Shown here in pieces: positions 43,370-63,282 of a stretch of 64,000 bases of DNA (the first letter of the stretch is position 1; the number at the start of each line of letters is the position of its first letter). The notes under the pieces are model-generated. The model saw only the letters and a list, made by a program, of their open reading frames with translations, was not told the origin of the DNA and did not search any database. Origin of the DNA: Patescibacteria group bacterium. GTDB lineage: Bacteria; Patescibacteriota; Microgenomatia; UBA1406. The stretch covers positions 69,177 through 133,176 of the forward strand of contig JBAYJK010000003.1 in NCBI GenBank assembly GCA_041665145.1. Reading direction: 5' to 3'. A program made the position numbers and the translations under genes.

Positions 43370-43421
43370 GTGCTGTGGAAGTAACGGACGTGGACCAGGA
43401 GGGCCTTATAGTGGTGTCTCA
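43370..43421 (+). repeat. Family-1 junction repeat, copy E
   Basis: GTGCTGtGGaAGTAACGGAcGTGGACCaGgAgGGCCTTATAgtGGTGTCTCA. Confidence 0.85.
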
Positions 43422-43439
43422 TATTTTAAGCTCAATTGA

Positions 43440-44417
43440 TTACTTCGTACGAAGTAGCATCAATATTAGTCCAATTGTTCTATCTCTATCTTTAGGAGTA
43501 CTTTCGGAGACAAGTATTGTTAACGCTGTTAGGGCTTCTGGAGTCAATTTTTGAGTATTTAATATATTGGTCTTTTTTAGAAACCAAACAAATACAAAAG
43601 CACCGCTTCTTTTATTTCCGTCCACAAATGGGTGACCTTTAACAATAAGATATAGAAGATTAGCTGCTTTTTCCTCTGCTGTAGGGTACAACTCTTTTCC
43701 ATTGAATGTTTGAAACACAGTTCTAACAATCCCAGTTAGTCTTCCTTCTTCTTTCTCGCGACCGAAAAGGAGACCTGCTTCTTTATCTCCAATTAACTCT
43801 TCCTTTAGATTTACAATTAACTTACTGACTTGGCTGGCTGTAAGCTCAAAAACACTTTTAATCTTACCGGATTTAGGAAGAGAGTCTTTATCGTAGGTAT
43901 CAAGAGAAAGCCATGTTGATGCAAAAGTTTTTATTAACTCAAGTGTGTTTTGTGTAGAAATCTGACTCTCTGGCAGTAACTCCTGCACTTCGTTAAGCAC
44001 CTTAAGGAAAGTGTTATAATTTTTTTCTAAAATTCTTCTGTTGAGAGTGTAACCCTTTATAATATGTTGCTTGAGTGTCTTTGTTGCCCATTGACGGAAT
44101 CTTGTAGCATTTATTGAGTTTACTCGATAACCAATAGAAAGAACAAGGTCCAAGTTATAATACTCAACTTTCCTCAAGATTTTTCTTGTTCCTTCAGTCT
44201 GAACTGTTTCCAAAACGGAAACAGTTGACTCTCTCTCAAGCTCACGAGTTGTAAAAATATTCTTAACATGTTTTGAGATAGCTCCTTTTTGTACGTTAAA
44301 AAGTTGAGCTACTTGCATCTGAGTAAGCAAAATCGTTTCATTAACAGCATCAAGCTGTACCTCTACTGCGCCGTTTTGAGCCTGATAGACCATAATTTGT
44401 TTACTTTCTTTTTCCAT
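43440..44417 (-). CDS. RhuM-like N-terminal domain fused to a Fic/Doc domain
   Basis: YYNLDLVLSIGYRVNS..RFRQWAT (RhuM pattern) and the C-terminal Fic/Doc motif GHPFVDGNKRSGAF. Confidence 0.8.
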   Translation of the reverse strand: MEKESKQIMVYQAQNGAVEVQLDAVNETILLTQMQVAQLFNVQKGAISKHVKNIFTTRELERESTVSVLETVQTEGTRKILRKVEYYNLDLVLSIGYRVNSINATRFRQWATKTLKQHIIKGYTLNRRILEKNYNTFLKVLNEVQELLPESQISTQNTLELIKTFASTWLSLDTYDKDSLPKSGKIKSVFELTASQVSKLIVNLKEELIGDKEAGLLFGREKEEGRLTGIVRTVFQTFNGKELYPTAEEKAANLLYLIVKGHPFVDGNKRSGAFVFVWFLKKTNILNTQKLTPEALTALTILVSESTPKDRDRTIGLILMLLRTK

Positions 44418-44502
44418 GTTTCAAAGTATAACAAAAAAGTGCTCAATCTAGATTAAGCAGTGTAGTTACAGGGATATAATCTGAGCTTACTTCTGAGTTT
44501 GT

Positions 44503-44545
44503 TGTGAGTAACGGATGCGAACCCGGAAGTTCTTATAGTGTTATA
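44503..44545 (+). repeat. Family-1 junction repeat, copy F (most diverged)
   Basis: tgtGAGTAACGGATGcGaACCcGgAaGttCTTATAGtGttata. Confidence 0.7.
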
Positions 44546-44607
44546 GATACAAGCATAACTAAGTAGATTTTTTAAATCCCCGATGAAGTCTTTAGTATAA
44601 TGTGACT

Positions 44608-45258
44608 ATGAAATTGCTATTAACTTCAGCAGGATTAACAAATCCATCAATTAGCCACGCAGCAGAAGAGCTGTTAGGCCAACCGGCTGAAGGAGTAAAG
44701 CTTGCTTTTATCCCGACTGCCGCCAACGTTGAGCCCGGTGACAAAAGTTGGATGATTCAAGACCTGAATAATTTTCAAAACGCAGGTTTTGAAGTAGATA
44801 TTGTTGATATCTCAGCGGTTTCAAAGGATACATGGTTGCCAAGACTGCTGGAATCTAAAATCTTGTTTTTGGGAGGTGGAAATACATTTCATCTGATGCA
44901 CTGGGTTCAAAAGTCAGGTTTACAGGAAGAACTTCCCTCTTTACTGAAAACGAGAGTATATGCCGGTATTAGTGCCGGAAGTTGCATTACGGGGCCTACC
45001 GTTTACAATTCAGTGCAAAACCTATTTGGTGAGAAATATGATCTTCAAATAAAAGCTGGTTTGGGTTTGGTTGGATTCCAATTTATTCCCCATCTGAACT
45101 CGGCATATTTTGACAAGATTCGGGAAGTAAACTTGCGAGAGGCATCTAAGAATCTTAAAGAGCCAGTATATGCTTTAGATGATAACTCTGCACTCAAGAT
45201 TACCGATGATAAGGTGGAAATAATTAGTGAGGGAGAGTATTTGTTATTCAATGCCTGA
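44608..45258 (+). CDS. S51 peptidase (dipeptidase E-like)
   Basis: FIPTAA, GGGNTFHL, GISAGS. The ATG at 44608 is preferred over the GTG at 44602 because TATAAT 44596-44601 lies 6 nt upstream. Confidence 0.75.
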   Translation: MKLLLTSAGLTNPSISHAAEELLGQPAEGVKLAFIPTAANVEPGDKSWMIQDLNNFQNAGFEVDIVDISAVSKDTWLPRLLESKILFLGGGNTFHLMHWVQKSGLQEELPSLLKTRVYAGISAGSCITGPTVYNSVQNLFGEKYDLQIKAGLGLVGFQFIPHLNSAYFDKIREVNLREASKNLKEPVYALDDNSALKITDDKVEIISEGEYLLFNA

Positions 45259-45275
45259 GTCAGTTGCAGTTTGAA

Positions 45276-45328
45276 ATTGTTGTGTCGTTATAACTCTTTC
45301 TACAAGACCAGTGCTGGGTTTTGCTGAT
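45276..45328 (+). repeat. Family-4 repeat, copy G
   Basis: GTCGTTATAActctttcTACAaGACcAGTGCTGGGTTTTGcTGAT. Confidence 0.8.
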
Positions 45329-45330
45329 AA

Positions 45331-45351
45331 AGTTGGAAAATTTTACCAACT
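45331..45351. terminator. hairpin AGTTGG-aaaatttta-CCAACT between convergent genes
   Basis: A 6-bp stem with an A/T loop, abutting the stop of the 45353 gene. Confidence 0.45.
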
Positions 45352-45352
45352 A

Positions 45353-46282: not shown

Positions 46283-46288
46283 GAAATA

Positions 46289-47461: not shown

Positions 47462-47513
47462 GTGCTGGGAGTAACGGATGTGGACCTGAAAGGCCTTATA
47501 ACGGTGTCTCACC
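47462..47513 (+). repeat. Family-1 junction repeat, copy I (island boundary)
   Basis: GTGCTGGGAGTAACGGATGTGGACCtGaAaGGCCTTATAacGGTGTCTCAcc. Confidence 0.85.
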
Positions 47514-47561
47514 TTTGAGGCTAAATGGGACATTTGGTACAGTATAAAAAGAAACAACTCA

Positions 47562-47578: not shown

Positions 47579-47602
47579 TTCATGTGGTTGTAGTATTTGA
47601 CT

Positions 47603-47863
47603 ATGTTTTATAAGAAAGAGATAGTTAAACAGCTAAACCTTTCTCAGCATACTGTTACAGATGTTATCAATGAACTTCCATCCGATTACGACTGGAAATT
47701 TCTCTGTCAGAAGATTGAGCTTGCGATAGTTAAACTTAACCGAGCTTCAGAACTGCTACGAATATACCATCTCGAGGTTTGTACCCTGAATAAACAAGAT
47801 AGAACAAAAACCACTTTAGGTTCTCAGACTATCAGTGAAGTTATGAAAGCATATAAATTTTAG
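47603..47863 (+). CDS. small protein with a possible HTH (86 aa)
   Basis: KQLNLSQHTVTDVI looks HTH-like. The ATG at 47603 is preferred over the TTG at 47597. Confidence 0.45.
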   Translation: MFYKKEIVKQLNLSQHTVTDVINELPSDYDWKFLCQKIELAIVKLNRASELLRIYHLEVCTLNKQDRTKTTLGSQTISEVMKAYKF

Positions 47864-47876
47864 CAAGAAGATAAAT

Positions 47877-48371
47877 ATGAGCTCAAAAGTTATAATTACT
47901 CTTTGCGTTTTCTTCGGCGTAATGCTCGGACTTGTTTTCTTTATAACAACTGGTCAAAAGCCGGATCTGGCGTCTATTGTATATTCCGCTCAAGATACTA
48001 ATCGGCCCAAAGTTGAGGCAAATAGCGTATTCAAAAACCTTGGGGAAATCAGCGTGTCCGATGTGAAAAAGCAGGACTTTTCTTTCAAAAATACAGGCAC
48101 CAAGCCTCTTCAGATTCTCGGAATTAGTTCGAGCTGCGGCTGTACAACAGGTCAGCTAATTTACAAAGGTACAACTACAAAACCATACAGTATGCATGCC
48201 CAAAGCGGATTCATTACTAACATAGCGCCAGGTGAAAGTGCCATAGTTCGCCTCGTATACCGCCCCGCGACTATGCCTGTGTACGGTCTCGTTGAGCGCG
48301 AAGTGTATGTAACGACAAACGATCCTCTTAATCAGAAATTGGTGTTTAGCATTAAAGCAAAGGTGAGGTAA
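47877..48371 (+). CDS. DUF1573-domain protein, membrane-anchored
   Basis: N-terminal TM, FKNTGTKPLQI and SSSCGCTTG. Confidence 0.75.
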   Translation: MSSKVIITLCVFFGVMLGLVFFITTGQKPDLASIVYSAQDTNRPKVEANSVFKNLGEISVSDVKKQDFSFKNTGTKPLQILGISSSCGCTTGQLIYKGTTTKPYSMHAQSGFITNIAPGESAIVRLVYRPATMPVYGLVEREVYVTTNDPLNQKLVFSIKAKVR

Positions 48372-48373
48372 AA

Positions 48374-49201
48374 ATGGATTCAAACTTTTTATTTGGCGTC
48401 TCATTGACAGCATCATTTCTCGCGGGAGTACTGGCACTATTTGCCCCGTGTTGTATAACATTTCTGTTCCCTTCATATCTTGGAACAATCTTCAAGGACG
48501 GCAAAAAGGTTATGTATTATACGTTTATCTTTGCGTTCGGCCTGGCCTTCGTCCTAGTTCCGATAGCACTTGGAATTAGGGCTGCTATATTCTTTCTCGA
48601 CACATACCATACACAAGTTTACTATCTCGGTGCGTTGGTTATGATTCTGATGGGTTTTTTAACACTTAAACCCGTACTCCATCTACCTCAGATATTTCAT
48701 GTCTCTAGCCCCCATGGAAAAAAAATTAACACAGGAACGGTTTTTGGATTAGGTCTTATGTCTGGACTAACTTCTGCCTGTTGCGCTCCAGTACTCTTTG
48801 CCGCTGTTACACTTACATCGCTGTCCCCCTCACTTTTACAGGCTTTTATCGTCTCAGCAGCATATATTGTCGGTATCGTCATGCCTTTGTTTATCATGTC
48901 AATGTTTTACGAAAAGGCAACTTCTCGGGTAACAGGAGCAAACAGACAGAAAATTTATCGGATTTTGAAGTTTGCGGGAGCCGCTTTATTTTTTCTTGCA
49001 GGTATACTGATAGCTTTATTCAATTTTTTTGGAAAAATACAGATGAACCAGATGGAACCATACAGCCAAAAAATTAGACTTATTTTTTTTGAAATTTCGA
49101 AATACTTCCAGAATCCGATAATCGACCTGGTAGTTTTTGGGATAGTTCTGCTTGCTTTTTACAAGTTACTACGTTATAAAGGCCATGAAAAAGAAGAATA
49201 A
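48374..49201 (+). CDS. DsbD/CcdA-family (DsbD_2) membrane thiol-disulfide transporter-like protein
   Basis: 6 TM, with LFAPCC in TM1 and TSACCAPV in TM4. Confidence 0.7.
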   Translation: MDSNFLFGVSLTASFLAGVLALFAPCCITFLFPSYLGTIFKDGKKVMYYTFIFAFGLAFVLVPIALGIRAAIFFLDTYHTQVYYLGALVMILMGFLTLKPVLHLPQIFHVSSPHGKKINTGTVFGLGLMSGLTSACCAPVLFAAVTLTSLSPSLLQAFIVSAAYIVGIVMPLFIMSMFYEKATSRVTGANRQKIYRILKFAGAALFFLAGILIALFNFFGKIQMNQMEPYSQKIRLIFFEISKYFQNPIIDLVVFGIVLLAFYKLLRYKGHEKEE

Positions 49202-50123
49202 TCTTTTGCCGGTAGTTATGGTTAGTGTTACTTTTAACGCGATTTTGGCTGCCATACTCATTACTCCCCGCGTCATAAGTTTAAAATCGACCCTTTTTAA
49301 ACCACAGGTATCTCCATCGACAAAAACTGTGGTAACCACCAAAAACAACTTGTTTGATCAAATTAACCCGGTTGCGGGGTATGAAATAAATGCATTGTAT
49401 AGAGATCTTGGCCCGAAACTTATAGCTTCGGGGGCAATAGATCGAGAGAAATTTCAAAGCACATATGAAAGATCTAGCCAACCGATGACAACAGAACAGA
49501 AACAAATTTTATTTAAAGGATCGAGCAAAAGAATAAAAGTAACCAGGGAAAACTCGTACTTTCTTCTTAATTTTTTCTGGGCTGTAGGGCTTGCCAATAA
49601 ATCTAAAATTCTCGACGAAGGAGATATGGTGAAATATGGCGGTAAAAGTGGTGCGGGCAATTTTGCCTCTACCGGAGGGTGGAGTTTGGCAAAAAGTGAG
49701 GCAATGAATTACTATTCAAAGTCGGAACTTATTTCGTTGACTGCAGAACAAGAAGCTCTCGTCGCTCTGGTAGCATCAAATATTTTCAGGCCTTGTTGTG
49801 ACAACTCAACGGCATTCCCGGACTGCAACCATGGGATGGCTTTATTGGGAGTCCTGCAACTTATGGCAGCAAACGGTGCAACTGAAAAAGACATGTATGA
49901 AGCGTCGAAATACTTCAACGCTTTTTGGTTCCCGGGAAACTATTATGATCTTGCATTATATTTTCAAAACAAGGAGGGAAAATCATTTAAAGATGTAGAT
50001 GCAAAGATCTTATTAAGTAAAGATTTCTCATCTGCAACTGCATCTCAAAATATTAAGCAATGGCTTGCTAATAAAGGATTAGTCCAGCAACCACCGAAAC
50101 AAGGTGGCGGATGCGGAGTATAA
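49185..50123 (+). CDS. membrane-anchored hypothetical protein with a PCCDNSTAFPDCNHG motif and a C-terminal GGGCGV
   Basis: 313 aa with an N-terminal TM. The start is at MKKKNN (49185), overlapping the previous gene by 17 nt. Confidence 0.6.
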   Translation: MKKKNNLLPVVMVSVTFNAILAAILITPRVISLKSTLFKPQVSPSTKTVVTTKNNLFDQINPVAGYEINALYRDLGPKLIASGAIDREKFQSTYERSSQPMTTEQKQILFKGSSKRIKVTRENSYFLLNFFWAVGLANKSKILDEGDMVKYGGKSGAGNFASTGGWSLAKSEAMNYYSKSELISLTAEQEALVALVASNIFRPCCDNSTAFPDCNHGMALLGVLQLMAANGATEKDMYEASKYFNAFWFPGNYYDLALYFQNKEGKSFKDVDAKILLSKDFSSATASQNIKQWLANKGLVQQPPKQGGGCGV

Positions 50124-50130
50124 TGCTCTT

Positions 50131-50799
50131 ATGAGGATTCTGATCGTCGAGGATGAACAAAGACTTTCTAATATTGTTCGAAAAGGATTCATTGAGGATG
50201 GTTTTGCTGTAGACCAAGCATTCGACGGTGAAGAGGGACAATACCTTGCTGAAAGTGAAGAGTATGATCTTATTGTGTTGGATATTGCATTACCTAAAGT
50301 CGATGGACTAACTCTCTGTAAAGAACTTCGTAATAAACAAATAAGAACCCCCGTTCTAATTTTAACCGCAAAGTCGAAAACGGAAGATAAAATAGCAGGG
50401 CTTGACTCAGGAGCTGACGACTATATGACAAAACCATTTTCTTTTGCTGAATTTCGCTCCCGTGTACACGCTCTTATCAGAAGAAGCCATCAAAATTCAT
50501 CCCCTGTTTTGGAAATTGAAGGTCTGGAGGTTGATCCATTGAAGCATATTGTGAAGAGAGACAGCAGGACAATAAGTTTGACTCCAAAGGAGTTTGCAAT
50601 TTTAGAGCTATTGATGAGGCATAAGGGTGAAGTGGTAAGCAGAACTATGATTACAGAGCATGTCTGGGATTATAATTTCGAGGGAATGAGTAACGTTGTT
50701 GATGTTTTCGTTACCACATTACGAAAGAAAATTAATCGGGGGTCAAAACACAAGCTCATACAAACGATTCATGGAGTCGGTTATAAGGTTGGAAGCTAA
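50131..50799 (+). CDS. OmpR-family response regulator (CopR/CusR-like by context)
   Basis: MRILIVEDE, LDIALPKVDG, TAK, HGVGYK. TATAAT 50119-50124 lies 6 nt upstream of the ATG. Confidence 0.9.
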   Translation: MRILIVEDEQRLSNIVRKGFIEDGFAVDQAFDGEEGQYLAESEEYDLIVLDIALPKVDGLTLCKELRNKQIRTPVLILTAKSKTEDKIAGLDSGADDYMTKPFSFAEFRSRVHALIRRSHQNSSPVLEIEGLEVDPLKHIVKRDSRTISLTPKEFAILELLMRHKGEVVSRTMITEHVWDYNFEGMSNVVDVFVTTLRKKINRGSKHKLIQTIHGVGYKVGS

Positions 50800-50800
50800 T

Positions 50801-52204
50801 ATGAATACCAAAAGCATACGATTCCGCATAATCTTCTGGTTCAGTCTGGCAATGTTTCTTGCGGCTGCATTTATTTTTTCCAGTTTTTATCTGGTAACAA
50901 CAAGGATACTTTTCAAACAAGTAGATAGCGAACTTTTGACACACGCGACTAAGTTATCACAGATCGTGACACGACAGGGTGTTAGTCTGCATGAGGTATT
51001 ATTGCAACAACAATTATTCACCGAATTCAGCAATATTCCGGGTATGGTTGTAGCCTTACTGGATGAAAATGGTATTGCTGTTAGCAGCTCGCTAAGTATG
51101 GATAGGCCATACGTTTCATATAACTATCTTTTCCAGCTAGCTCGGGGTTCCGCAAAACCAGTCTACTTAAACCAGGAAATTAGCAATGTACCTATGAGAT
51201 TCATTGCCCAGCCAATCAGAAGCGGATCGGATCTTGTAGGTATTGTACTCGTTGCACACCCTATTGATGCTATCCAGAAGTCTCTCAATACTCTTCTTAC
51301 GACCCTCGCGATACTGCTGGGGCTGCTCGTAATTCCAACGGTTCTCGGCGGATTAGTCCTCGCCGGAAAAATCATGCAACCCATATCTCATATAACCAAT
51401 AAAATTGACAAGATAAGTTCCGAACATCTTGAAGAGAGGGTGGATACATCCCGAACAGGGGATGAAATGGAAAAGCTTGGGGTTACCTTTAACAGTCTTC
51501 TAGATCGTCTTCAGGATTCGTTTCAACGGGAACGACAGTTCATCGGTGATGTTGCACATGAATTGAAGACCCCGGTTGCAACTCTTAAGAGCGGAATTGA
51601 ACTCGCGCTTTTAAAAAACAGGACAAACGATGAATACAGACAATTCTTCAAGGAAACTCTTATTGATGTCAATAGATTATCTACAACAATCAAAAATATT
51701 CTTGATCTTGCTTGGCTCGGGGCGGAGAGCTCACAAATTTCTGAGAACAGTTTTAATTTGTCGGTAACGCTTACCGAATTAAGCGAGATTGCAACAAAAC
51801 TAGCAGCTCAAAAACGTATAAGCATAAGAAACAATATTAGGCAAAATATATTTGTTATTGGAGTAGAAGACAAAATAACCAGAGCAATACTCAACATTAT
51901 TGATAACGCGATCAAATACACTCCAGTGGATAAAACTGTCAGTATTACTTTGCACAAAAGAGGCGGTAGCGCTATCCTTGAAATAACTGATACCGGTATC
52001 GGTATTTCGGAAAAAGAGATAGATCATATCTTCGAACGTTTTTATCGTGGCGCAAAAACTGCAAAAACATTAGGCTCAGGTCTCGGACTTGCCATTGCGC
52101 AGGGTATTATAAAAGCCCATCGCGGTGAAATTGATGTGACTAGTAAAGTCGGCAAAGGAACCACAGTTTCTATTACCTTGCCTATCAAAGGCATTCTATC
52201 ATAA
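50801..52204 (+). CDS. sensor histidine kinase (CopS/CusS-like by context)
   Basis: Two TM segments flanking a periplasmic-type domain, HAMP, H-box AHELKTPV, DNAIKYT, DTGIGI and GSGLGLAI. Confidence 0.9.
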   Translation: MNTKSIRFRIIFWFSLAMFLAAAFIFSSFYLVTTRILFKQVDSELLTHATKLSQIVTRQGVSLHEVLLQQQLFTEFSNIPGMVVALLDENGIAVSSSLSMDRPYVSYNYLFQLARGSAKPVYLNQEISNVPMRFIAQPIRSGSDLVGIVLVAHPIDAIQKSLNTLLTTLAILLGLLVIPTVLGGLVLAGKIMQPISHITNKIDKISSEHLEERVDTSRTGDEMEKLGVTFNSLLDRLQDSFQRERQFIGDVAHELKTPVATLKSGIELALLKNRTNDEYRQFFKETLIDVNRLSTTIKNILDLAWLGAESSQISENSFNLSVTLTELSEIATKLAAQKRISIRNNIRQNIFVIGVEDKITRAILNIIDNAIKYTPVDKTVSITLHKRGGSAILEITDTGIGISEKEIDHIFERFYRGAKTAKTLGSGLGLAIAQGIIKAHRGEIDVTSKVGKGTTVSITLPIKGILS

Positions 52205-52207
52205 CCA

Positions 52208-52224
52208 TCTTCACACTTTCCTAA
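52208..52224 (+). promoter_or_regulatory. Direct repeat TCTTCA-N5-TCCTAA (island RR box 3)
   Basis: Same phasing as box 1, 12 nt upstream of TATAGT (52237-52242). Confidence 0.5.
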
Positions 52225-52274
52225 TGCTACTCATTATATAGTTCAAATATATATAGCAATTTAATATAATCAAT

Positions 52275-52481
52275 ATGGAGTACCATGAAGCACCAACGTA
52301 CAACAGCAAAACGAGTGCAGTAATAACGTGGTTCCTTGTTTGTCTGTGTGCAGTTGTTGTTGTGGTTGTGGCGGTTACGGTGTTTAAGGTTAAGCTAAAT
52401 AGCTTGTTGTATGTAGGAATTCTTTTACTATGTCCGCTCATACATTTTGTGATGATGAAAAGCGGCAGCCATAAGCATTAA
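52275..52481 (+). CDS. DUF2933-like small membrane protein
   Basis: 68 aa with the C-terminal LLLCPLIHFVMMKSGSHKH pattern seen next to copper ATPases. Confidence 0.5.
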   Translation: MEYHEAPTYNSKTSAVITWFLVCLCAVVVVVVAVTVFKVKLNSLLYVGILLLCPLIHFVMMKSGSHKH

Positions 52482-52521
52482 CTACGACAAAAAATAAACA
52501 CAAAAGTGTTACGATAAAAGC

Positions 52522-54663: not shown

Positions 54664-54689
54664 TTGCTGTCTTCAACGAAACTCTGAAA

Positions 54690-54706
54690 TCTTCATAAAA
54701 TCTTAA
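54690..54706 (+). promoter_or_regulatory. Direct repeat TCTTCA-N5-TCTTAA (island RR box 2)
   Basis: The 17-mer is identical to box 1. It lies 12 nt upstream of TATGCT (54719-54724), which is 7 nt from the ATG at 54732. An extra TCTTCA at 54669-54674 is 21 nt upstream. Confidence 0.55.
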
Positions 54707-54731
54707 CTGCCTGTCTTGTATGCTGTATTTT

Positions 54732-56579
54732 ATGAAAAAATGTAACATCAATATCAAAGGCATGCACTGCCGATCATGTGAATTGTTAATAGAAGACGAA
54801 TTACAAAAGGTACCCGGTATTGAACGGGTTTCAGTAAGCCACCAAACTGGGGTTGCCGAGTTATTCTACCGACACGGATTTAATGAACAGGCAGTTGCAC
54901 ATGCGATACAGAATGCCGGATACAGTATTGGGGTGAATGAAAAACCTCATATTTTTTCTCGGAACCACTGGGATTATGTTGATGTAGGAATTGCTTTCTT
55001 CATGGTAATGACCGTGTTTCTCCTTGCAAAAACATTCGGATTATTCAATTTGGGAAGTTCAATTTCGGGAAGCTACTCAAGCTTACCCATTGTGTTCATT
55101 GTCGGTCTCACCGCGGGAGTATCAACATGTATGGCAATGGTGGGCGGGTTGGTGCTCGGCGCTGCTGCTCGGTTTTCCGCGCAAAATCCAAATGCCAGCG
55201 CTCTCGAGAAATTCAAACCACATCTATTTTTTAATCTTGGAAGAATCACGTCATACACAGTTTTGGGAGGTGTGGTAGGTTTTGCTGGATCTCTGTTTCA
55301 GCTTTCTACTTCAGTTCTGGGAATTTTGACTGTTACAGTGGGGCTTGTCATGTTGCTTCTCGGAGGCCAACTTATCGAGATATTCCCTGTTTTAAAGCGA
55401 ATATCGTTTACTTTACCCAAAGGGATTTCTCGTATACTTGGTATTAAGGAGCAGACTCAGTCTGAATACAGTGACAAAGGTGCTGCAATTATGGGGGCTT
55501 CGACTTTTTTTCTACCCTGTGGTTTCACTCAGGCAATGCAACTATTTGCCATGAGTACCGGCAGTCCCGTAACAGGCGCGTTAACCATGGGTGTTTTCGC
55601 ACTTGGTACGGCGCCTGGATTGCTCAGTGTTGGTGGTCTTACATCCGTAATTAAAGGTGAGGCTGCGAAGATGTTTTTCAAGGTTGCTGGTGTTGTAGTT
55701 GTTCTGCTCGCCCTATTTAATATTTCAAATGGCCTTAACTTACTCGGGATTGGCCCGAACGTTCTTGGAGCTTTCAATACAAAGGCTGCAACGAATACAA
55801 CAGCTACTGATTCAAATGTCACCATCGCTAATGGGGTTCAGGAAGTTCGGATGACGCAAGATTCTTCCGGTTACACGCCTAATAGCTTTACTATCAAAAA
55901 AGGTACTCCAGTGAAATGGATTGTTACTTCAACTGATGTTAATACCTGTGCAAGTAGCATTGTGTCACAGCAGTTAGGTGTGCGCCAAGCACTGCAGTTA
56001 GGTGAGAACATCATAAATTTTACTCCAACAGAAACCGGTACAATCCGCTTTTCATGCATGATGGGAATGTATAATGGATCGTTTAATGTAGTTGATGAGA
56101 CTGAGACGTCGGCTGTTCCTTCTGTACTTGCCGCAGATGCAACGCCAGCGGGGGTGAGTGCGTTACCACTGCCAAGCACTACGACCACCAATGCAAAGTC
56201 ATCATGTGGCGGTTCTGGTGGAGGTGGTTGTGGATGCGGCTCAAAGCGTGCAGTGCCTACTCCAAACCCTAGCCAACCTATCGCAGAAGCCGTTGTTGAG
56301 AATAATGTACAGGTAATTAAGGCCACGTACACAAGTCTCGGCGATATCTCGCCCAACTTTTTTATCGTTAAAGCAAATCAACCGGTACGTTTCGAAGTTG
56401 ACGCGCAGGATAACGGCGAAGGTTGTATGGGCAGCATCACAGTTCCCAACCTGACAAATAAGGTGGATATTCTCACCAAAGGACAAAAGACGATTTTTGA
56501 ATTTACACCCAGTACTCCGGGTAACTACAATATCACTTGCGGGATGGGAATTCCGAGAGGCCAAATACAAGTTATTTAG
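54732..56579 (+). CDS. HMA domain + TauE/SafE-like membrane domain + two cupredoxin-like domains
   Basis: N-terminal GMHCRSCE, 6-8 TM (FFLPCGFTQAMQLFA), a Cys/Gly linker SSCGGSGGGGCGCGS, and two beta domains ending FSCMMGMYNG and ITCGMGIPRG. Confidence 0.75.
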   Translation: MKKCNINIKGMHCRSCELLIEDELQKVPGIERVSVSHQTGVAELFYRHGFNEQAVAHAIQNAGYSIGVNEKPHIFSRNHWDYVDVGIAFFMVMTVFLLAKTFGLFNLGSSISGSYSSLPIVFIVGLTAGVSTCMAMVGGLVLGAAARFSAQNPNASALEKFKPHLFFNLGRITSYTVLGGVVGFAGSLFQLSTSVLGILTVTVGLVMLLLGGQLIEIFPVLKRISFTLPKGISRILGIKEQTQSEYSDKGAAIMGASTFFLPCGFTQAMQLFAMSTGSPVTGALTMGVFALGTAPGLLSVGGLTSVIKGEAAKMFFKVAGVVVVLLALFNISNGLNLLGIGPNVLGAFNTKAATNTTATDSNVTIANGVQEVRMTQDSSGYTPNSFTIKKGTPVKWIVTSTDVNTCASSIVSQQLGVRQALQLGENIINFTPTETGTIRFSCMMGMYNGSFNVVDETETSAVPSVLAADATPAGVSALPLPSTTTTNAKSSCGGSGGGGCGCGSKRAVPTPNPSQPIAEAVVENNVQVIKATYTSLGDISPNFFIVKANQPVRFEVDAQDNGEGCMGSITVPNLTNKVDILTKGQKTIFEFTPSTPGNYNITCGMGIPRGQIQVI

Positions 56580-56593
56580 TTATTAACAAAACT

Positions 56594-56797
56594 ATGCAAT
56601 CAATGAAACTAACCGGACTTACTTGCAACGCTTGCAAGAAAGTCTCAGAAAAAAGGATCGGAGCAATAAGCGGAGTTCAAAAAGTTGATGTTTCCGTTGA
56701 ATTGGGTGTAGCAGTCATAGATTCCGATAGGCTACTATCAGTATTAGAAGTTAACAAAGTGCTTCAAGACACACCTTATAAAGCACTCGAGAAATAG
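56594..56797 (+). CDS. small HMA-like metallochaperone (CopZ-like)
   Basis: 67 aa with [12 protein letters not shown]. The start is taken at MQSMKL. Confidence 0.65.
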
Positions 56798-56798
56798 T

Positions 56799-59700
56799 AT
56801 GAATAGAATAATTGATCTTAAAATTGAAGGAATGCATTGTCAGTCGTGCGAAATGTTAATCAAAGATGAGCTGTCTTCCCTTTCGGGTGTCAAAGACGTT
56901 AGTACTGACTATAAAACTGGCCGCGGAACAGTCACTTTAACCAATCGGGTTACTTCAGACGCGGCAATTCTTGACTCTGTAAAAAATGCAGGGTATGTGG
57001 CTTCTGTAATTACTTCCAATCATCTGAGTAACAACGTATCACAATTGCCACAAGAAAAGGGAACATTTGCTTTTTTGAATTTCCCAAAGGAAATAGGTCT
57101 TGAAGGAACAATCGGCAAGAATGCAGAAGGACAGGTGACCATTAAAGGTAAGTTACGATTTAATTCTAACGAAAGCGATGAACCTCACCAACTCGCTCAG
57201 CCGAATAACGTTGTCGAAAATAATACTTTTGCTGGTAAAACGGAACGAACTAGTTTGGTCATTATAGGAATGCATTGTTCCTCTTGTGCCGCAATTATTG
57301 AGAGACAGTTAAAAAAGGTGACTGGTGTATCAGAAGCAAAAGTTAATTTCGCTTCTGAAAAAGCATCTGTAGTTTACAATTCGGGCGTAACAAAGACAGA
57401 AGATTTAATAAAAGCAGTTGAAAAATCTGGATACAAAGCTGCTCCCGCTCATACTGAAGACTCACAAGCTCAAGCAAAACGCCAAACATCAGAAATAAAG
57501 CATCAATGGAACAGATTCATTATCAGCATGGTGTTGTCGTCCCCAATGATTTATTTCATGTTTCTTGATTTCTTTAATTTTCTACCGGGAACCAAGCTCA
57601 TACTTCCCTACATTGGAATCATATCGTTTGTATTAGCAACACCCGTACAATTCATCATTGGCTCCAACTTTTACAAAGGAATGATTTCCGCCTTAAAGAT
57701 GCGTACGTTTAACATGGATAGTTTAATAGCTATAGGGACATCCGTTGCCTATTTCTATAGCGCTGCTAACTTTATCCAATACTTTATAACCAACAATTCC
57801 TTAATTGGCCTTGCAGGAGCCAAAATTCCAGATTTGTACTTTGAAACTGCAGCATTCCTTATTACGTTTGTTATTCTAGGAAAATTCCTTGAAGCAAAAG
57901 CCAAAGGAAGGACATCTGAAGCGATTAAGAAACTCATGGGTTTGCAGGCAAAAACAGCACGAGTTATACGAAACGGAGAGACAGTTGATATTCCTGTTGA
58001 CCAGGTTATCAAAAACGATATTATCATGGTTCGACCCGGAGAAAAAGTCCCCGTAGATGGAACGATTACGAAAGGCTCCTCTTCTATCGACGAATCAATG
58101 ATAACCGGTGAGAGTCTTCCTGTTGAAAAACATGTTGAGGACACAGTTATCGGCGGCACAATAAATAAAGTCGGTAGCTTTGAGTTTATGGCAACACGAG
58201 TGGGGTCTGAAACTACGCTCGCCCAAATTATCCGCCTCGTTGAAGACGCACAGGGTTCTAAGGCACCCATTCAAGCTGTTGCCGATAAGATTTCTGCATA
58301 CTTTGTTCCGGGTGTAATAGCACTTGCCGTTTTGACATTTGTTGTCTGGTTTTTCTTTTTAGGGTCAACGCTTTCTTTCGCTCTAATGGCATTTACGGCA
58401 GTTATTGTTATTGCCTGTCCTTGTGCTCTGGGCCTTGCCACCCCGACAGCCATAATGGTTGGAACGGGAGTTGGGGCTGAACATGGCATCTTAATCAAAG
58501 GTGGCGAACCATTGGAAAGTGCAAGTAAAATAAATACGATTGTTTTCGACAAAACAGGAACTATCACAAAAGGAAAGCCCGAAGTAACTGATGTTGAAGA
58601 TGTTGGTTCGCTTGACGATAAAGAAGTGCTTGCTATTTCTGCAAGTCTTGAAAAGCAATCCGAACACCCCCTTGCTGAAGCAATATATTCTTACTCTCAA
58701 GAGGAAGGTGTGACTCTTAAAGAAGTTGAGAAGTTTAGTGCAATTCCAGGCCATGGCGTCAAAGGGACTATTGGAAACAAAGATTACTTTTTCGGAAATC
58801 GCAAGCTTATTACCGAAACGCTTGGTTTGGATATCGGTAAGTTTGAACGGAAGCTCGTACGACTCGAAGAACAGGGAAAAACAGCAATGATCCTATCTTC
58901 AAAAGACGAAGTGCTTGGACTGATTGCTGTTGCTGATACGATAAAAACCACTTCGAGAGAAGCTATTGAAAAACTCAAGAAGATGAAGATTGAAGTATGG
59001 ATGATCACAGGGGACAATACCCGTACGGCTAAGGCAATTGCTGCACAAGTCGGTATTGACAATGTCCTCGCCGAAGTCTTGCCTCAAGATAAGGCCAACG
59101 AAGTAAAAAAACTTCAGGAACAAGGTAAAAAAGTAGCGATGGTAGGAGACGGTATTAATGACGCACCGGCACTTGCACAAGCTGAACTTGGAATTGCAAT
59201 GGGTTCGGGAACTGATGTTGCCATGGAAGCCGGAGGAATCGTCATCATTAAGAATGATCTCAGAGATGTAGTTAATGCACTCGATCTTTCCAAGAGCGCC
59301 GTGCAAAAAATACAACAAAACATGTTCTTTGCTTTGTTCTATAACGTTATCGGCATTCCAATCGCTGCGCGTGTATTTATGTTCGCGGGCCTTGTGTTAA
59401 AGCCGGAACTTGCTGGTCTTGCGATGGCACTTAGTTCAGTTTCTGTAGTAAGCAACTCACTGCTTCTTCGGCGCTACCGTCCGGGAAAAAAGAACTATAT
59501 ATCTATGTTTGCACCGATTGTTATGATGATCGCTTTTACGTTACTGTTTATCGAATTTGCACGGTTTAGTTCCACTATGGCTGCACCAAAGAAGATGGAT
59601 TCGAAAGTAACCAATTCTCGTGCAGTTAGTAATGTGGTAGAAATAAGCGCTCCCACTGGAGTTAAAAAACAGTTCTATATGGTAGGAAACAGTATTCCTA

Positions 59701-59948
59701 CAGAGTTATCAGGTCAGATACAAATGGAGGCATTCAATCCGGTATATATTGCAGGAAAGAAGTATAGTCCGATTTTTATAGGGTATGACGAGGCTCAGGT
59801 TATGATTGAGGAAAAACTATTTTCTAAACCGGGTGATACTATTAAGAACTTTTTTGGTAATGACATTATTGTCTCAGGCGTCTTAGTAAAGACTAATTCA
59901 GTTTTTGATACGTATCATTTTGTCAAGGAAGGGTTCCAATTAAGGTGA
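56799..59948 (+). CDS. copA: Cu+-type P1B ATPase with two N-terminal HMA domains and a ~150 aa C-terminal extension
   Basis: GMHCQSCE and [57 protein letters not shown], then an extra TM plus a soluble domain (59499-59945). Confidence 0.9.
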
Positions 59949-59978
59949 ATGAAATAAGTCTGCTATGAGGCCGATGTG

Positions 59979-60049
59979 CTGGGGGACGTGGATTCGGACC
60001 ACGATAAACAGCTCCAAAGGCTGCTGTCCTACCATTAGACGATCCCCCA
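59979..60049 (-). tRNA. tRNA-Gln (anticodon UUG), no encoded CCA
   Basis: The manual cloverleaf is TGGGGGA/TCCCCCA acceptor stem, GTCT/GGAC D stem, GCAGC-CTTTGGA-GCTGT anticodon arm, and CGTGG-TCCGAAT-CCACG T arm, with discriminator G. The 5' TGGGG.ATCG start resembles the bacterial tRNA-Gln I remember. Confidence 0.85.
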
Positions 60050-60669: not shown

Positions 60670-60672
60670 TTT

Positions 60673-61251: not shown

Positions 61252-61300
61252 GCGCTTATTATACTAAAAGCTATTCTCAGGAAGTACGAACGTTATTAGT

Positions 61301-61668: not shown

Positions 61669-61763
61669 TTGTTTATTGCGAAGCGTAAAATTTCCCGACT
61701 TATTTTCTCGAATAACGATAATAGTATATTGAAAAACGATAAATCGTGGAATATACTGTCAAT

Positions 61764-62240
61764 ATGAAACGAGGTTCCACTTTATTTCTAAAGGTCGTAA
61801 TTTTACTCACTGCCATTAGTGTGCTTACCGCCATGCTTTGGTTCCCTCAAACTGAGGGAAGAGCTGCTAACTTAGATCTAATCAGTATTTATACAGATCC
61901 CGTTATTATTTATATGTATATAGCATCAATTTCTTTCTTCATTGGGCTATATCAGGCATTTAAACTACTAAATCTTATTGACGCTAACAAAGCATTCTCC
62001 CAAGGTGCTGTTAATACACTCAAAAATATGAAGTTTTCCTCACTTACCCTTATCGGATTAATTGCAGTAGCTGAAGGCTATATCCGTTTCTTTGCACACG
62101 GCGACGATCCAGCTGGTCCGACAATGCTTGGTTTTTGTTTAGTAATAGCATTTGCCGTTATTGCCACAGCAGCCAGTGTCTTTCAAAAACTTCTCCAAAA
62201 TGCTGTAGATATAAAATCAGAAATTGATTTAACTGTATAA
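61764..62240 (+). CDS. DUF2975-like membrane protein
   Basis: 4 TM, followed by a YozG-like HTH gene (a known pairing). The ATG at 61764 is preferred because TATACT 61752-61757 lies 6 nt upstream. Confidence 0.6.
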   Translation: MKRGSTLFLKVVILLTAISVLTAMLWFPQTEGRAANLDLISIYTDPVIIYMYIASISFFIGLYQAFKLLNLIDANKAFSQGAVNTLKNMKFSSLTLIGLIAVAEGYIRFFAHGDDPAGPTMLGFCLVIAFAVIATAASVFQKLLQNAVDIKSEIDLTV

Positions 62241-62249
62241 GTCACAAAT

Positions 62250-62474
62250 ATGGCAATAATAATCAACATAGATGTAATGTTAGCTAAGCGAAAGATGAGT
62301 GTTACCGAACTTACTACTGAGGTGGGTATTACAATGGCTAATCTTTCAATTTTGAAGAATGGAAAAGCAAAAGCTATACGCTTCTCAACACTCGAAGCTA
62401 TCTGCAAAGCCTTAGATTGCCAACCTGGAGATATTTTGGAATATAAAGAAACTTATGCGAGCCAAATTACTTAA
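62250..62474 (+). CDS. XRE-family HTH regulator (YozG-like)
   Basis: MLAKRKMSVTELTTEVGITMANLSILKNGKAKAIRFSTLEAICKALDCQPGDIL. Confidence 0.9.
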   Translation: MAIIINIDVMLAKRKMSVTELTTEVGITMANLSILKNGKAKAIRFSTLEAICKALDCQPGDILEYKETYASQIT

Positions 62475-62527
62475 ATAATGAGAATTTCTTTTCATGGTAT
62501 TTGCCCAGAGTAAAATTTCACAGCTTC

Positions 62528-62574
62528 ATCAACAAAACCCAGCACTAGTCCTGTAAAACGAATTATAACGACTC
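62528..62574 (-). repeat. Family-4 repeat, copy M (inverted)
   Basis: The reverse complement reads GTCGTTATAAttcgtttTACAgGACtAGTGCTGGGTTTTGtTGAT. Confidence 0.8.
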
Positions 62575-62600
62575 TGAATAATGTTGTGATATAATAGTTT

Positions 62601-63242
62601 ATGTTTTTAGAGCACTGGAAAAGGCTTTTTGCTGGCGACAGAGATAAGACTCATTTAACGAACGGAGGACTTGACTTGCGTGACGCTGAGCTTTTGGATG
62701 TTGCTGAATCGCGCGTTTTTAGAAAAGGTGGGTCTGTTTTAAAAATTTATGACACTCCTCTTTCAAGGGGAATAATTACTCGCTCCACGCTACAACTATA
62801 CAAAAGGCTCACCGGACAAGTCTCACAAGAACTAACCCAAAGATCTGATGAGTGGTCGTTTTCAGGGCAATGTATTTCTATACACTGGAACGTGGTGGAA
62901 ATAGACAATTTAGGAGAATTGCCTGGAACCGGAGATGCATGGTCTATGAGTAAATACGTGCCGGGAATTAATCTGAGAGATATGTATTACCCGCAGTGGG
63001 CTCGACGACAAGTTATACAACAAGCTGTCCTGAAAGGTCGCGAGGAGCAGATGAGAGGTTTATTGGACCGGGTATCGCTCGAAGTAAATGCACGGCTGAA
63101 TACAGATTTAACAGACATAGATCTTACCAATGTCATCGTAGATGCTTCAAATACAGGCTTATTATTCAATGTAACCGATGTCTGTGGAATAGTTTCAAAG
63201 GTTGATGGTGGTTATGCAAGAGTTCCATTGATGTTTGAGTAA
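62601..63242 (+). CDS. hypothetical protein, possibly an atypical kinase-like fold
   Basis: 213 aa. The pair DIDLTNVIVD ... FNVTDVCG weakly resembles a kinase catalytic loop and DFG. Confidence 0.4.
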   Translation: MFLEHWKRLFAGDRDKTHLTNGGLDLRDAELLDVAESRVFRKGGSVLKIYDTPLSRGIITRSTLQLYKRLTGQVSQELTQRSDEWSFSGQCISIHWNVVEIDNLGELPGTGDAWSMSKYVPGINLRDMYYPQWARRQVIQQAVLKGREEQMRGLLDRVSLEVNARLNTDLTDIDLTNVIVDASNTGLLFNVTDVCGIVSKVDGGYARVPLMFE

Positions 63243-63244
63243 TG

Positions 63245-63282
63245 CTATAAGGCCTTCTTGGTCCACATTCGTTACTCCCAGC
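63245..63282 (-). repeat. Family-1 junction repeat, copy K (inverted)
   Basis: The plus strand reads CTATAAGGCCttcttGGTCCACAttCGTTACTCCCAGCc, the reverse complement of the family consensus. Confidence 0.85.

What the first reader, a model, noticed from the sequence alone, without database searches (positions are those of the whole stretch)
43370..63282. Family-1 junction repeat (about 50 nt, 4 copies, one inverted)
The copies at 43370-43421, 44503-44545, 47462-47513 (plus orientation) and 63245-63282 (inverted) share the consensus GCTGGGAGTAACGGATGTGGACCnGnAnGGCCTTATAnnGGTGTCTCA. Copies E and K begin 19 and 3 nt after a stop codon on the strand of the upstream gene. Copies F and I sit between divergent genes. 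The element contains an internal near-direct repeat (TAACGG ... TAACGG/TAGTGG) and the palindrome AAGGCCTT. This conservation exceeds what a terminator or promoter would need. I cannot assign it to any known repeat or RNA class.
Basis: seen in the sequence. Interest (0 to 1): 0.55.

Follow-up and report, generated by a model that had tools for sequence, protein, structure and literature searches.

The report
tRNA-Gln-like junction repeats between gene cassettes
The four repeats are decayed copies of the tail end of a glutamine tRNA gene that sit at the seams between small, horizontally shuffled gene cassettes in an uncultured Patescibacteria genome, most likely as recombination-site scars.

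Summary
There are four copies (43370-43421, 44503-44545, 47462-47513, 63245-63282) against 0 expected by chance, and no others in 84 kb of this genome.

The element is not a structured RNA, a terminator, an attC site or an IS end. Read on the opposite strand, each copy has the layout of a tRNA 3' end: GG, a 7-nt T-loop, CC+3, a 7-nt acceptor strand, G, then CAC or CCA. The copies resemble the window's own tRNA-Gln (59978-60049) best among 25 tRNAs (p about 2e-4).

Three copies are direct repeats downstream of that tRNA. Copy I occupies the exact position, 4 nt before the ATG of a conserved 177-aa gene, where a relative (L135) has an intact tRNA-Gln.

Related Microgenomates contigs (L131, L135, L015) carry arrays of such elements. 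All lie downstream of tRNA-Gln and co-oriented with it, one after each small cassette. The same cassettes have different neighbours in different genomes, and homology breaks 20-30 nt from the elements.

Best reading: these are partial-tRNA attachment-site repeats left by serial site-specific insertion at tRNA-Gln. No recombinase lies within 84 kb, although large serine recombinases occur in related arrays. This is a new variant of a known kind, of moderate interest.

The parts
43370..43421 (-). Copy E. The tRNA-like core is 43375-43410 on the minus strand: CTATAAGGCCCTCCTGG TCCACGT CCGTT ACTTCCA(C)AG CAC. It lies between the stop of the RhuM/Fic gene and the leaderless promoter of the 224-aa hydrolase gene.
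   Evidence: Its 3' end supplies a -35-like TCCACA 16 nt upstream of TGATATAAT.
44498..44545 (-). Copy F, the most diverged copy: CTATAAGAACTTCCGGG TTCGCAT CCGTT ACTCACA A CAA. It lies about 85 nt upstream of the RhuM/Fic ATG, between divergent genes.
   Evidence: DNA homology with the 91%-identical RhuM/Fic locus L046 stops at 44480, 23 nt short of F.
47462..47513 (-). Copy I: ...GTTATAAGGCCTTTCAGG TCCACAT CCGTT ACTCCCA G CAC, followed by A and then the ATG of the 177-aa gene (46927-47460). It takes the place of an intact tRNA-Gln(CTG) seen in relative L135.
   Evidence: and alignment A5.
63245..63284 (+). Copy K: CTATAAGGCCTTCTTGG TCCACAT TCGTT ACTCCCA G CCA. It starts 3 nt after the stop of the 213-aa gene and lies upstream of the Exo_endo_phos gene (63333-). 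It is inverted relative to the other copies and to tRNA-Gln.
   Evidence: Homologues of the 213-aa gene in L044 and L045 carry the same TATAAGR-N7-GGTYC right after their stop codons.
59978..60049 (-). Intact tRNA-Gln(UUG), the likely anchor or primary attachment site. Its 3' end, GG TCCGAAT CCACG TCCCCCA G CAC, faces the metal-resistance cluster and copies I, F and E.
47504..47557 (-). A 54-nt flank of copy I on the metal-cluster side. It contains a TATACT -10 box 8 nt before TGTCCCATTTAGCC. It is 83% conserved next to an I-like element in L044, and is recognisable in L131 beside ArsR.
47597..59948 (+). Metal (copper-type) resistance cluster lying between copy I and tRNA-Gln. It is conserved as a unit in relatives. 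There it abuts other tRNAs and, in L031, a large serine recombinase next to tRNA-Lys.
43440..44480 (-). RhuM/Fic cassette (gene plus a 63-nt promoter region) bracketed by F and E. This is the only stretch shared with the 91%-identical locus L046.

Best explanation
The Family-1 elements are partial, decayed copies of the 3' end of a tRNA-Gln gene: the T-arm, the acceptor 3' strand, the discriminator G and 3 nt of trailer, preceded by a non-tRNA part, YTATAAGR-N7. They mark the seams of small laterally acquired gene cassettes and islets in an integration hotspot anchored at tRNA-Gln.

Proposed mechanism (inferred). A circular cassette or island carries an attachment site that mimics the tRNA-Gln 3' end. 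It recombines site-specifically with the tRNA-Gln gene, or with an element copy already present. The insert ends up bracketed by two tRNA-like sites. Later insertions push older ones away from the tRNA, which builds an array of cassettes separated by co-oriented partial-tRNA repeats. The recombinase acts in trans and is not encoded near the window's copies; large serine recombinases sit in related arrays.

The copies may still serve as recombination substrates for cassette gain, loss and reshuffling. There is no evidence that they act as RNAs, promoters or terminators.

Shown: the sequence layout, the positions, the orientation, the comparative arrays and the homology breakpoints. Inferred: the recombination reaction, its enzyme and whether it is still active.
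For: 1. tRNA layout. On the reverse strand all copies read GG-N7-CC+3-N7-G-CAC/CCA and align without gaps to the 3' halves of tRNA-Gln genes. E, I and K share the unusual GGTCC (C55) of the window's tRNA-Gln.
2. Specificity. A weight matrix of the four copies, scored only on the 20 columns after the T-loop anchor, ranks the window's tRNA-Gln first of 25 tRNAs. p = 0.0002 against 10,356 anchored random sites.
3. tRNA cross-hits. In 10 kb of flanking core genome, the element profile's best (weak) hits are the two real tRNA genes.
4. Placement. E, F and I are direct repeats downstream of the 3' end of tRNA-Gln(UUG).
5. Positional equivalence. Copy I ends 4 nt before the ATG of the 177-aa gene. 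In L135 an intact tRNA-Gln(CTG) ends 4 nt before the ATG of the 66%-identical homologue, and in L131 a homologous element ends 5 nt before it.
6. Arrays in relatives. L131 has tRNA-Gln(CTG) followed by at least 6 elements, and L135 has tRNA-Gln(CTG) followed by 5. All are on the tRNA's strand, at gene junctions, with none in the 12 kb upstream of the tRNAs. L015 has tRNA-Gln, an exact 20-nt copy of its 3' end, a hydrolase cassette and then an element with E = 4e-6.
7. Cassette shuffling with breakpoints near the elements. The RhuM/Fic locus shares only 43452-44480 with L046. L046 is bracketed by its own 39-nt direct repeat at the same positions and is followed by a homologue of the gene that follows K in the window. 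The 213-aa gene has different neighbours in three genomes but always the element after its stop codon.
8. Recombinases nearby in relatives. Large serine recombinases lie inside the L131 array, and between the metal cluster and tRNA-Lys in L031.
9. Known precedent. Partial tRNAs scattered through tRNA-anchored islands are described as remnants of serial integration (bioRxiv 10.1101/2020.12.28.424599).
Against: - No integrase, resolvase or transposase lies in the window or in 10 kb on either side (Pfam; gene tables; tblastn with the L131 recombinase).
- Similarity of single copies to the tRNA is only marginal by shuffling: p = 0.01-0.06 for I, and not significant for K and F.
- Neither ARAGORN nor the Rfam tRNA model detects the copies, even on 100-nt queries.
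- The T-stem is not self-complementary in the window's copies.
- The 5' part (TATAAGR-N7) is 5 nt too short to match the anticodon-to-T-arm spacing of a tRNA.
- K is inverted and lies on the 5' side of the tRNA.
- The copies are more like each other (79-89%) than like the tRNA (72%). They therefore derive from a common element-borne site or have been homogenised, and are not independent scars of this tRNA.
- Every public contig carrying these genes is 100% identical, so no empty site or presence/absence polymorphism could be shown for this genome.
- Serine recombinases do not normally leave long direct repeats.
Confidence: 0.6

Rival explanations
1. A lineage-specific intergenic repeat (REP-, MITE- or 'portable homology'-like) unrelated to tRNA. 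It spreads or is homogenised by homologous recombination or gene conversion, and cassettes swap by recombination between copies. On this view the T-loop-like motif is coincidental.
For: High identity within a genome contrasts with strong divergence between genomes, which looks like concerted evolution: window copies are 79-89% alike, and L046, L045 and L044 each have their own variant. No recombinase is nearby. Individual tRNA similarity is marginal.
Against: There is no palindrome, no terminal inverted repeat and no target duplication. There are only 4 copies in 84 kb, all in the accessory region. In three relatives every copy lies downstream of tRNA-Gln and is co-oriented with it. The tRNA layout, including G-CCA, is kept across genomes. 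Copy I replaces a tRNA-Gln positionally.
Confidence: 0.15
2. A cis-regulatory DNA element, such as an operator, an insulator or an upstream promoter element bound by a common regulator. It would coordinate or insulate transcription of accessory genes.
For: Read on its tRNA-like strand, the element always points the same way as the gene downstream of it and lies upstream of that gene's leaderless promoter. In E its 3' end provides a -35-like hexamer at the right spacing. The motif TATAAGR-N7-GGTYC is conserved after orthologous stop codons.
Against: The distance to the start codon varies from 1 to about 85 nt. There is no dyad symmetry. 40-50 nt is long for an operator. Promoter-like sites are not enriched (13 found against 15 expected). 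This reading does not explain the tRNA layout or the arrays downstream of tRNA-Gln.
Confidence: 0.08
3. An RNA-level processing signal ('tRNA punctuation'). The tRNA-like 3' end in a polycistronic transcript is cut by tRNA-processing enzymes, which releases downstream mRNAs with near-leaderless 5' ends.
For: Most genes here look leaderless (TGnTATAAT-N6-8-ATG). The ATG of the 177-aa gene lies 4-5 nt after the discriminator-like G of a true tRNA-Gln in L135, of an element in L131 and of copy I.
Against: The copies do not fold into an acceptor/T-arm minihelix (z-scores about 0 to +1.8). There is no consensus structure. Most downstream genes have their own promoter between the element and the ATG. 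F and I have no upstream co-transcribed gene.
Confidence: 0.07
4. Remnant of a coding sequence or a small ORF. The element would encode (R)HxYKAF(L/Q)VHIRYSQ on the gene-sense strand, or VTDVDxxGLI on the other strand.
For: Both of these frames are free of stop codons in all four copies. K is in frame with the upstream gene, directly after its stop codon. Several differences between copies are synonymous (by inspection of the sequences).
Against: Variable columns split 4:4:5 over the three codon positions, so there is no third-position bias. F has no start codon and is bounded by stops 16 codons apart. E has ACG where the others have ATG on the opposite strand. The homologous elements in other genomes do not keep the frame.
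Confidence: 0.03
5. Integron-type attC sites in a cluster of attC sites that lacks an integrase (a CALIN).
For: The elements follow the stop codons of small cassettes with miscellaneous functions. They are homogeneous within a genome and differ between genomes.
Against: There are no RYYYAAC/GTTRRRY core sites and no imperfect palindrome. The single-strand folds are no better than shuffled sequence. Cassettes carry their own promoters and face both ways. No integron integrase is present.
Confidence: 0.02

Closest known systems
Partial-tRNA attachment-site repeats in tRNA-anchored genomic islands (for example Prochlorococcus islands and tycheposons; Hackl et al., bioRxiv 10.1101/2020.12.28.424599, read)
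   Same: Elements integrate at tRNA genes and leave partial tRNA copies on both sides of the insert. Successive integrations push older elements further into the island, separated only by a partial tRNA. Extra partial tRNAs scattered in the islands are read as remnants of older events. A minority of those elements use a large serine recombinase.
   Different: Here the units between repeats are mostly single genes of 0.5-3 kb, each with its own leaderless promoter. None carries an integrase. The repeats have diverged far from the resident tRNA (about 72% identity, not detectable as tRNA) yet are homogeneous among themselves. The host is a roughly 0.9-Mb Patescibacteria genome. Mobility has not been demonstrated.
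Tandem genomic islands at the tmRNA gene (ssrA) in Dehalococcoides (PMC3146451; only the abstract was seen; the rest is from my own knowledge)
   Same: A small-genome bacterium with a single small-RNA gene as integration hotspot. Islands lie in tandem, separated by short direct repeats of the gene's 3' end.
   Different: Those islands are several kb long, usually carry an integrase, and their repeats are near-exact 20-nt copies of ssrA. The target here is tRNA-Gln and the repeats are degenerate.
Integron cassette arrays (attC sites) - from my own knowledge
   Same: Arrays of mostly single-gene cassettes with one recombination-site-like element after each ORF. The sites are homogeneous within a genome and diverged between genomes. 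The cargo includes acetyltransferases, hydrolases and toxin-type genes.
   Different: The attC sequence and structure features were tested and are absent. No IntI integrase is present. Cassettes have their own promoters and face both ways. The anchor is a tRNA gene, not attI.
Cis-mobilisable elements and accretion at att sites of integrative elements (CIMEs and IMEs; the review PMC5704250 was listed but not read; from my own knowledge)
   Same: Integrase-less DNA segments bracketed by att sites, thought to be mobilised in trans by a related element's recombinase.
   Different: Those were described in Firmicutes with larger elements and intact att sites. Here there is no evidence yet for a helper element.

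Membership tests
Functional tRNA gene or recent tRNA pseudogene | Cloverleaf detectable by tRNA finders or the covariance model | tested here: not met
   ARAGORN finds only tRNA-Gln at 59978-60049, even with its score threshold relaxed to 90% of default. At an 80% threshold it reports 29 mostly spurious hits, none on a Family-1 copy. The Rfam tRNA model does not hit copy I or its L044 homologue at E <= 10 on roughly 100-nt queries.
Partial-tRNA att repeat of a tRNA-targeting integrative element | Collinear similarity to the 3' end of a tRNA gene (T-arm, acceptor strand, discriminator) | tested here: met
   Ungapped alignment to tRNA-Gln 3' halves. Weight-matrix test p = 0.0002, with the window's tRNA-Gln ranked first of 25 tRNAs. 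The support is moderate, however: shuffling tests on single copies give p = 0.01-0.06 at best.
Partial-tRNA att repeat of a tRNA-targeting integrative element | Direct orientation relative to, and downstream of, an intact copy of that tRNA | tested here: met
   E, F and I meet this (3 of 4 copies); K does not. In relatives L131, L135 and L015, 12 of 12 elements meet it.
Partial-tRNA att repeat of a tRNA-targeting integrative element | The repeats bracket laterally acquired or variable DNA | tested here: met
   Homology with L046 ends 23-31 nt from F and E. The same cassettes have different neighbours in L044, L045, L046 and L131. GC content drops to 36-40% in this region.
Partial-tRNA att repeat of a tRNA-targeting integrative element | A site-specific recombinase encoded in or next to the element | tested here: not met
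   None in 84 kb. Large serine recombinases are present in the related array L131 and beside the metal cluster and tRNA-Lys in L031.
Partial-tRNA att repeat of a tRNA-targeting integrative element | Evidence of excision or integration (empty sites, circular junctions) | not testable with these tools
   All retrievable contigs of this genome are 100% identical.
Integron attC site | R''/R' core sites (RYYYAAC...GTTRRRY) and an imperfect palindrome that folds as single-stranded DNA | tested here: not met
   No such core sites in the sequences. The folds are no more stable than shuffles, with z-scores up to +1.8.
Intrinsic terminator | GC-rich hairpin followed by a T-run | tested here: not met
   0 terminator-like sites in 42.5-47.7 kb against 3.3 expected, and none at K.
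REP, MITE or IS end | Palindrome or terminal inverted repeats, target duplication, many dispersed copies, and an associated transposase | tested here: inconclusive
   No inverted repeats or transposase were found, and there are only 4 clustered copies in 84 kb. The remaining roughly 835 kb of the genome could not be searched.
Any Rfam RNA family | A covariance-model match | tested here: not met

The most novel reading that the evidence does not exclude
Microgenomates (Patescibacteria) may possess a dedicated, integron-like gene-capture platform. Single-gene cassettes (a leaderless promoter, an ORF and a roughly 40-nt site that mimics the tRNA-Gln 3' end) would be inserted one after another at a tRNA-Gln gene by a trans-encoded recombinase, possibly the large serine recombinase seen in related arrays. 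This would give ultra-small genomes a compact, exchangeable accessory-gene array. A further twist is possible: the tRNA-like sites might also act as processing points that free near-leaderless mRNAs.
Probability: 0.3. Interest if true: 0.75.

Novelty: new variant of a known kind. Interest (0 to 1): 0.5.

Why it matters
Patescibacteria (CPR bacteria) have tiny genomes, and almost nothing is known about how they gain and exchange accessory genes. If these tRNA-Gln-like junction elements are working recombination sites, they define a compact cassette array that supplies hydrolases, acetyltransferases, toxin-type genes and metal resistance. That array could be searched for across thousands of metagenome-assembled genomes.

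Even if the copies are only scars, they have practical uses. They give a marker for delimiting laterally acquired cassettes in these genomes. They also explain why unrelated genes share near-identical flanks, which helps with annotation and with spotting assembly artefacts.

Tried and rejected
- **Collection scans.** A degenerate 30-mer that matches all four copies found nothing in genome contigs, metagenome contigs or viral contigs. A control showed that the JGI contig holding the pattern is not in the scanned metagenome collection. These negatives therefore say little about this species.
- **Rfam.** Gathering and relaxed thresholds on the window, on copy I, and on L044 and L131 gave only noise.
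- **RNA folding.** Folding each copy on both strands and a consensus fold of I-type units from three genomes showed no structure.
- **Small ORF or coding remnant.** Rejected because there is no codon-position bias and the start and stop codons are broken.
- **attC, dif/Xer-type site, terminator, sigma-70 promoter.** The defining features are absent (and by inspection of the sequences).
- **Strain variation.** The other contigs are all 100% identical to the window, so there are no indels to examine.
- **Loci around the copper ATPase.** No Family-1 copy in 37 related loci, about 650 kb. These loci were still useful for taxonomy and synteny.
- **Viral relatives of RhuM/Fic.** None found.
- **Metal island in relatives.** No direct repeats of tRNA-Gly, tRNA-Asp or tRNA-Lys flank it in L011, L030 or L031.
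- **Copy I plus its 54-nt flank as a whole decayed tRNA gene.** It has a -10 box, an 8-nt gap, a 71-nt unit and a D-arm-like stretch. This is suggestive, but no tRNA model supports it.
- **Long module.** The roughly 200-nt module that follows tRNA-Gln in L131 and L044 is absent from the window.

Full report
**Observation.** The four copies exist at the stated coordinates. A 19-nt core with up to 3 mismatches finds exactly these four sites, with none in 100 shuffles. The repeat finder recovers them as families D1 and I3. An nhmmer profile of the four scores them at E = 4e-17 to 4e-14. The next hit in the window plus 9 kb on the right has E = 5, and the 10 kb to the left has none. So there are four copies in 84 kb, all between 43.3 and 63.3 kb. 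The internal TAACGG repeat and the AAGGCCTT palindrome are not shared by all copies, nor by homologues elsewhere.

**Source.** The window is part of a 480-kb ENA metagenome contig. It is identical to part of a 919-kb JGI/NCBI contig labelled Patescibacteria group bacterium. Relatives of its copper ATPase are Gottesmanbacteria, Woesebacteria and other Microgenomates.

- The stretches at 37-47.6 kb and from 60 kb rightward (to at least 67 kb, beyond the window's end) have lower GC. They hold small genes of mixed function: GNAT, HAD, deaminase, alpha/beta hydrolases, RhuM/Fic, peptidase S51, GrpB and HTH proteins.
- Most of these genes have TGnTATAAT followed 6-8 nt later by ATG, so they look leaderless.
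- A conserved metal-resistance cluster (47.6-59.9 kb) and a single tRNA-Gln(UUG) (59978-60049, minus strand) lie between the two stretches.

**What it is not.**

- It matches no Rfam family at gathering or relaxed thresholds.
- It has no stable or shared fold on either strand, with z-scores from +1.8 to -2.0.
- There is no terminator-like site in the region: 0 found against 3.3 expected.
- Promoter-like sites are not enriched there.
- It has no attC core sites and no palindrome.
- No transposase or integrase lies in 84 kb.
- Two reading frames through the element are open, but the variable columns split 4:4:5 over codon positions, and the start and stop context is broken in F and E. A coding reading is therefore rejected.

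**What it looks like.** Read on the opposite strand, the element points the same way as the gene downstream of it. In that orientation it reads YTATAAGR-N7-GG-TCCACAT-CCGTT-ACTCCCA-G-CAC (CCA in K). From GG onward this is the exact layout of a tRNA 3' end: G52 G53, a 7-nt T-loop, a 5-nt T-stem strand, a 7-nt acceptor strand and the discriminator. The window's tRNA-Gln reads GG-TCCGAAT-CCACG-TCCCCCA-G-CAC, which includes the unusual C55 and the same 3-nt trailer.

The statistical support is mixed:

- Shuffling tests on single copies are only marginal: p = 0.01-0.06 for I, and not significant for K and F.
- tRNA finders do not call the copies.
- A weight matrix of the four copies, scored only on the 20 columns after the T-loop anchor, ranks the window's own tRNA-Gln first of 25 tRNAs. 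p = 0.0002 against 10,356 anchored random sites.
- In the left flank, the element profile's top weak hits are the two true tRNA genes.

**Comparative evidence.**

1. *The 213-aa gene before K.* It has only four homologues, at 55-63% identity. In L044 and L045 its neighbours differ on both sides, yet its stop codon is again followed by TATAAGR-N7-GGTYC. L045 has a second copy of its own variant after the preceding gene.
2. *The RhuM/Fic gene between F and E.* It has a 91%-identical homologue, L046. DNA homology covers only the gene plus a 63-nt promoter region (window 43452-44480). Outside that stretch L046 has its own 39-nt direct repeat, 70 nt upstream of the ATG and 20 nt after the stop, where the window has F and E. 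The next gene in L046 is a homologue of the gene that follows K in the window. RhuM/Fic genes are flanked by significant direct repeats in 5 of 40 loci and lie next to tRNAs in several others.
3. *The 177-aa gene that starts 1 nt after copy I.* It belongs to a conserved family of 187 homologues of the same length. In L135 an intact tRNA-Gln(CTG) ends 4 nt before the homologue's ATG. In L131 a homologous element ends 5 nt before it. Copy I aligns collinearly with that tRNA's 3' half.
4. *Arrays.* L131 has tRNA-Gln(CTG) followed over 11 kb by at least 6 elements, with consensus RRGG-TYCTAGA-CCGGC-CYGCTCA-G-CCA. L135 has tRNA-Gln(CTG) followed by 5. All are on the tRNA's strand, at gene junctions, with none in the 12 kb upstream. 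L015 has tRNA-Gln(CTG), an exact 20-nt duplicate of its 3' end, a hydrolase cassette and then an element with E = 4e-6.
5. *Recombinases.* A large serine recombinase lies inside the L131 array. Another lies between the metal cluster and a tRNA-Lys in L031. The metal cluster abuts different tRNAs in different genomes.

**Interpretation.** The best-supported reading is that Family 1 is this genome's version of a partial-tRNA-Gln attachment-site repeat. Cassettes and islets would enter by site-specific recombination at the tRNA-Gln 3' end, or at an existing copy. Each insert ends up bracketed by tRNA-like sites, and older inserts are pushed away from the tRNA. This explains several observations:

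- the direct orientation of E, F and I downstream of tRNA-Gln;
- the metal cluster sitting between the tRNA and I;
- the RhuM/Fic cassette sitting between F and E;
- homology breakpoints that fall 20-30 nt from the elements.

The same logic is described for tRNA-anchored islands in Prochlorococcus (bioRxiv 10.1101/2020.12.28.424599).

**Weak points.**

- No recombinase is encoded nearby.
- K is inverted and lies on the other side of the tRNA. It may have travelled with the 213-aa cassette.
- The copies are closer to each other than to the tRNA.
- The 5' TATAAGR part is not tRNA-like.
- No empty site or circular form could be shown.

I put this reading at about 0.6.

**Rivals.**

- An unrelated homogenised junction repeat (0.15).
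- A regulatory or insulator element (0.08).
- A tRNA-like RNA processing signal that frees near-leaderless mRNAs (0.07). The constant 4-5-nt spacing to the ATG of the 177-aa gene is intriguing, but the copies do not fold.
- A coding remnant (0.03).
- An attC site (0.02).

**Novelty.** Partial-tRNA repeats in islands are well known. What differs here is the scale and the host. The units are mostly single genes, each with its own promoter and one element, in arrays of up to six or more in relatives. They carry no per-unit integrase, and the host is an ultra-small Patescibacteria genome. The resulting arrangement resembles an integron array. The most novel reading not excluded is a dedicated tRNA-Gln-anchored cassette-capture platform, to which I give a probability of about 0.3.

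Noticed in passing
window 37000-47600 and 60050-64000: Nearly every gene has an extended -10 box (TGnTATAAT or a close variant) 6-8 nt before its ATG and no Shine-Dalgarno sequence. The accessory genes therefore appear to be transcribed as leaderless mRNAs from individual promoters.
   Followed up: partly
window 42621-42650 (+), 46125-46156 (+), 61329-61358 (-); shorter versions at 40671-40694, 60106-60134, 37347-37370: A second repeat family, ATTATATCACTAGTCCGAATCCWGGTTG, is fused to the promoter GACTAGTGATATAAT of unrelated genes. Its GTCCGAATCC equals the T-loop of the window's tRNA-Gln (p about 0.001-0.005 by shuffling). With its score threshold relaxed to 80% of default, ARAGORN calls pseudo-tRNAs ending at two of the copies.
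   Followed up: partly
window 45284-45346 and 62510-62572: A 63-nt inverted repeat pair (84% identical) that contains CCCAGCAC, the 3' end of Family 1, followed by TAGTCC. One copy lies just upstream of the promoter of the 213-aa gene. This may be a chimeric or degenerate junction element.
   Followed up: no
window 44461-44485 and 46156-46180: A direct repeat, TGTWGTTACAGGGATATAMT, containing a -10-like box with no start codon after it. One copy lies 17 nt from copy F and the other directly after a Family-2 copy.
   Followed up: no
window 47561-47579 and 54689-54706: A 19-nt motif is repeated within the metal cluster. It is conserved upstream of the HMA/DsbD-cupredoxin gene in more than ten related genomes, and is probably the operator or promoter of the copper-responsive regulon.
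   Followed up: partly
window 47504-47557; L044 915-968; L131 about 14430-14480: The stretch beside copy I (a TATACT -10 box, then 8 nt later TGTCYCATTTAGCYTC...GTGAKACAC) is more conserved across three genomes (83%) than the element itself. It contains a D-arm-like stretch. Together with the element it is tRNA-sized, at 71 nt. It is either an old tRNA-like unit or the conserved end of a mobile island.
   Followed up: partly
L131 4488-4761, 5673-5941, 12336-12529; L044 996-1199: A roughly 200-270-nt non-coding module begins with the tRNA-Gln 3' end (or an element) and continues with conserved blocks (AGTGACCCGACTCCCTCGAATAGCCCGTGTTTTCC ... GAGGATTATAACGGT ... ACCCTCAAA ... GTYCGAATCCC). Two copies bracket a 1.2-kb racemase segment right after the tRNA-Gln in L131. 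The module is absent from the window.
   Followed up: partly
L135 7926-8003: An intact tRNA-Gln(CTG) ends 4 nt before the ATG of a protein-coding gene, and the only promoter in that 110-nt gap sits in front of the tRNA. The mRNA may be made by tRNA 3' processing of a tRNA-mRNA co-transcript.
   Followed up: no
L031 13302-14306 and tRNA-Lys 14777-14849; L011 and L030 tRNA-Gly; L021 tRNA-Asn: The conserved metal-resistance cluster abuts a different tRNA gene in each of several genomes. In L031 a large serine recombinase lies between the cluster and the tRNA, so the whole cluster behaves like an integrative island.
   Followed up: partly
window 10670-10691 and 10872-10893: A perfect 22-nt GC-rich palindrome, GGGCCGGGCATGCCCGGCCCGT, occurs twice 202 nt apart in an otherwise 42% GC region. 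The two copies overlap the end of the ORF at 10707-11162.
   Followed up: no
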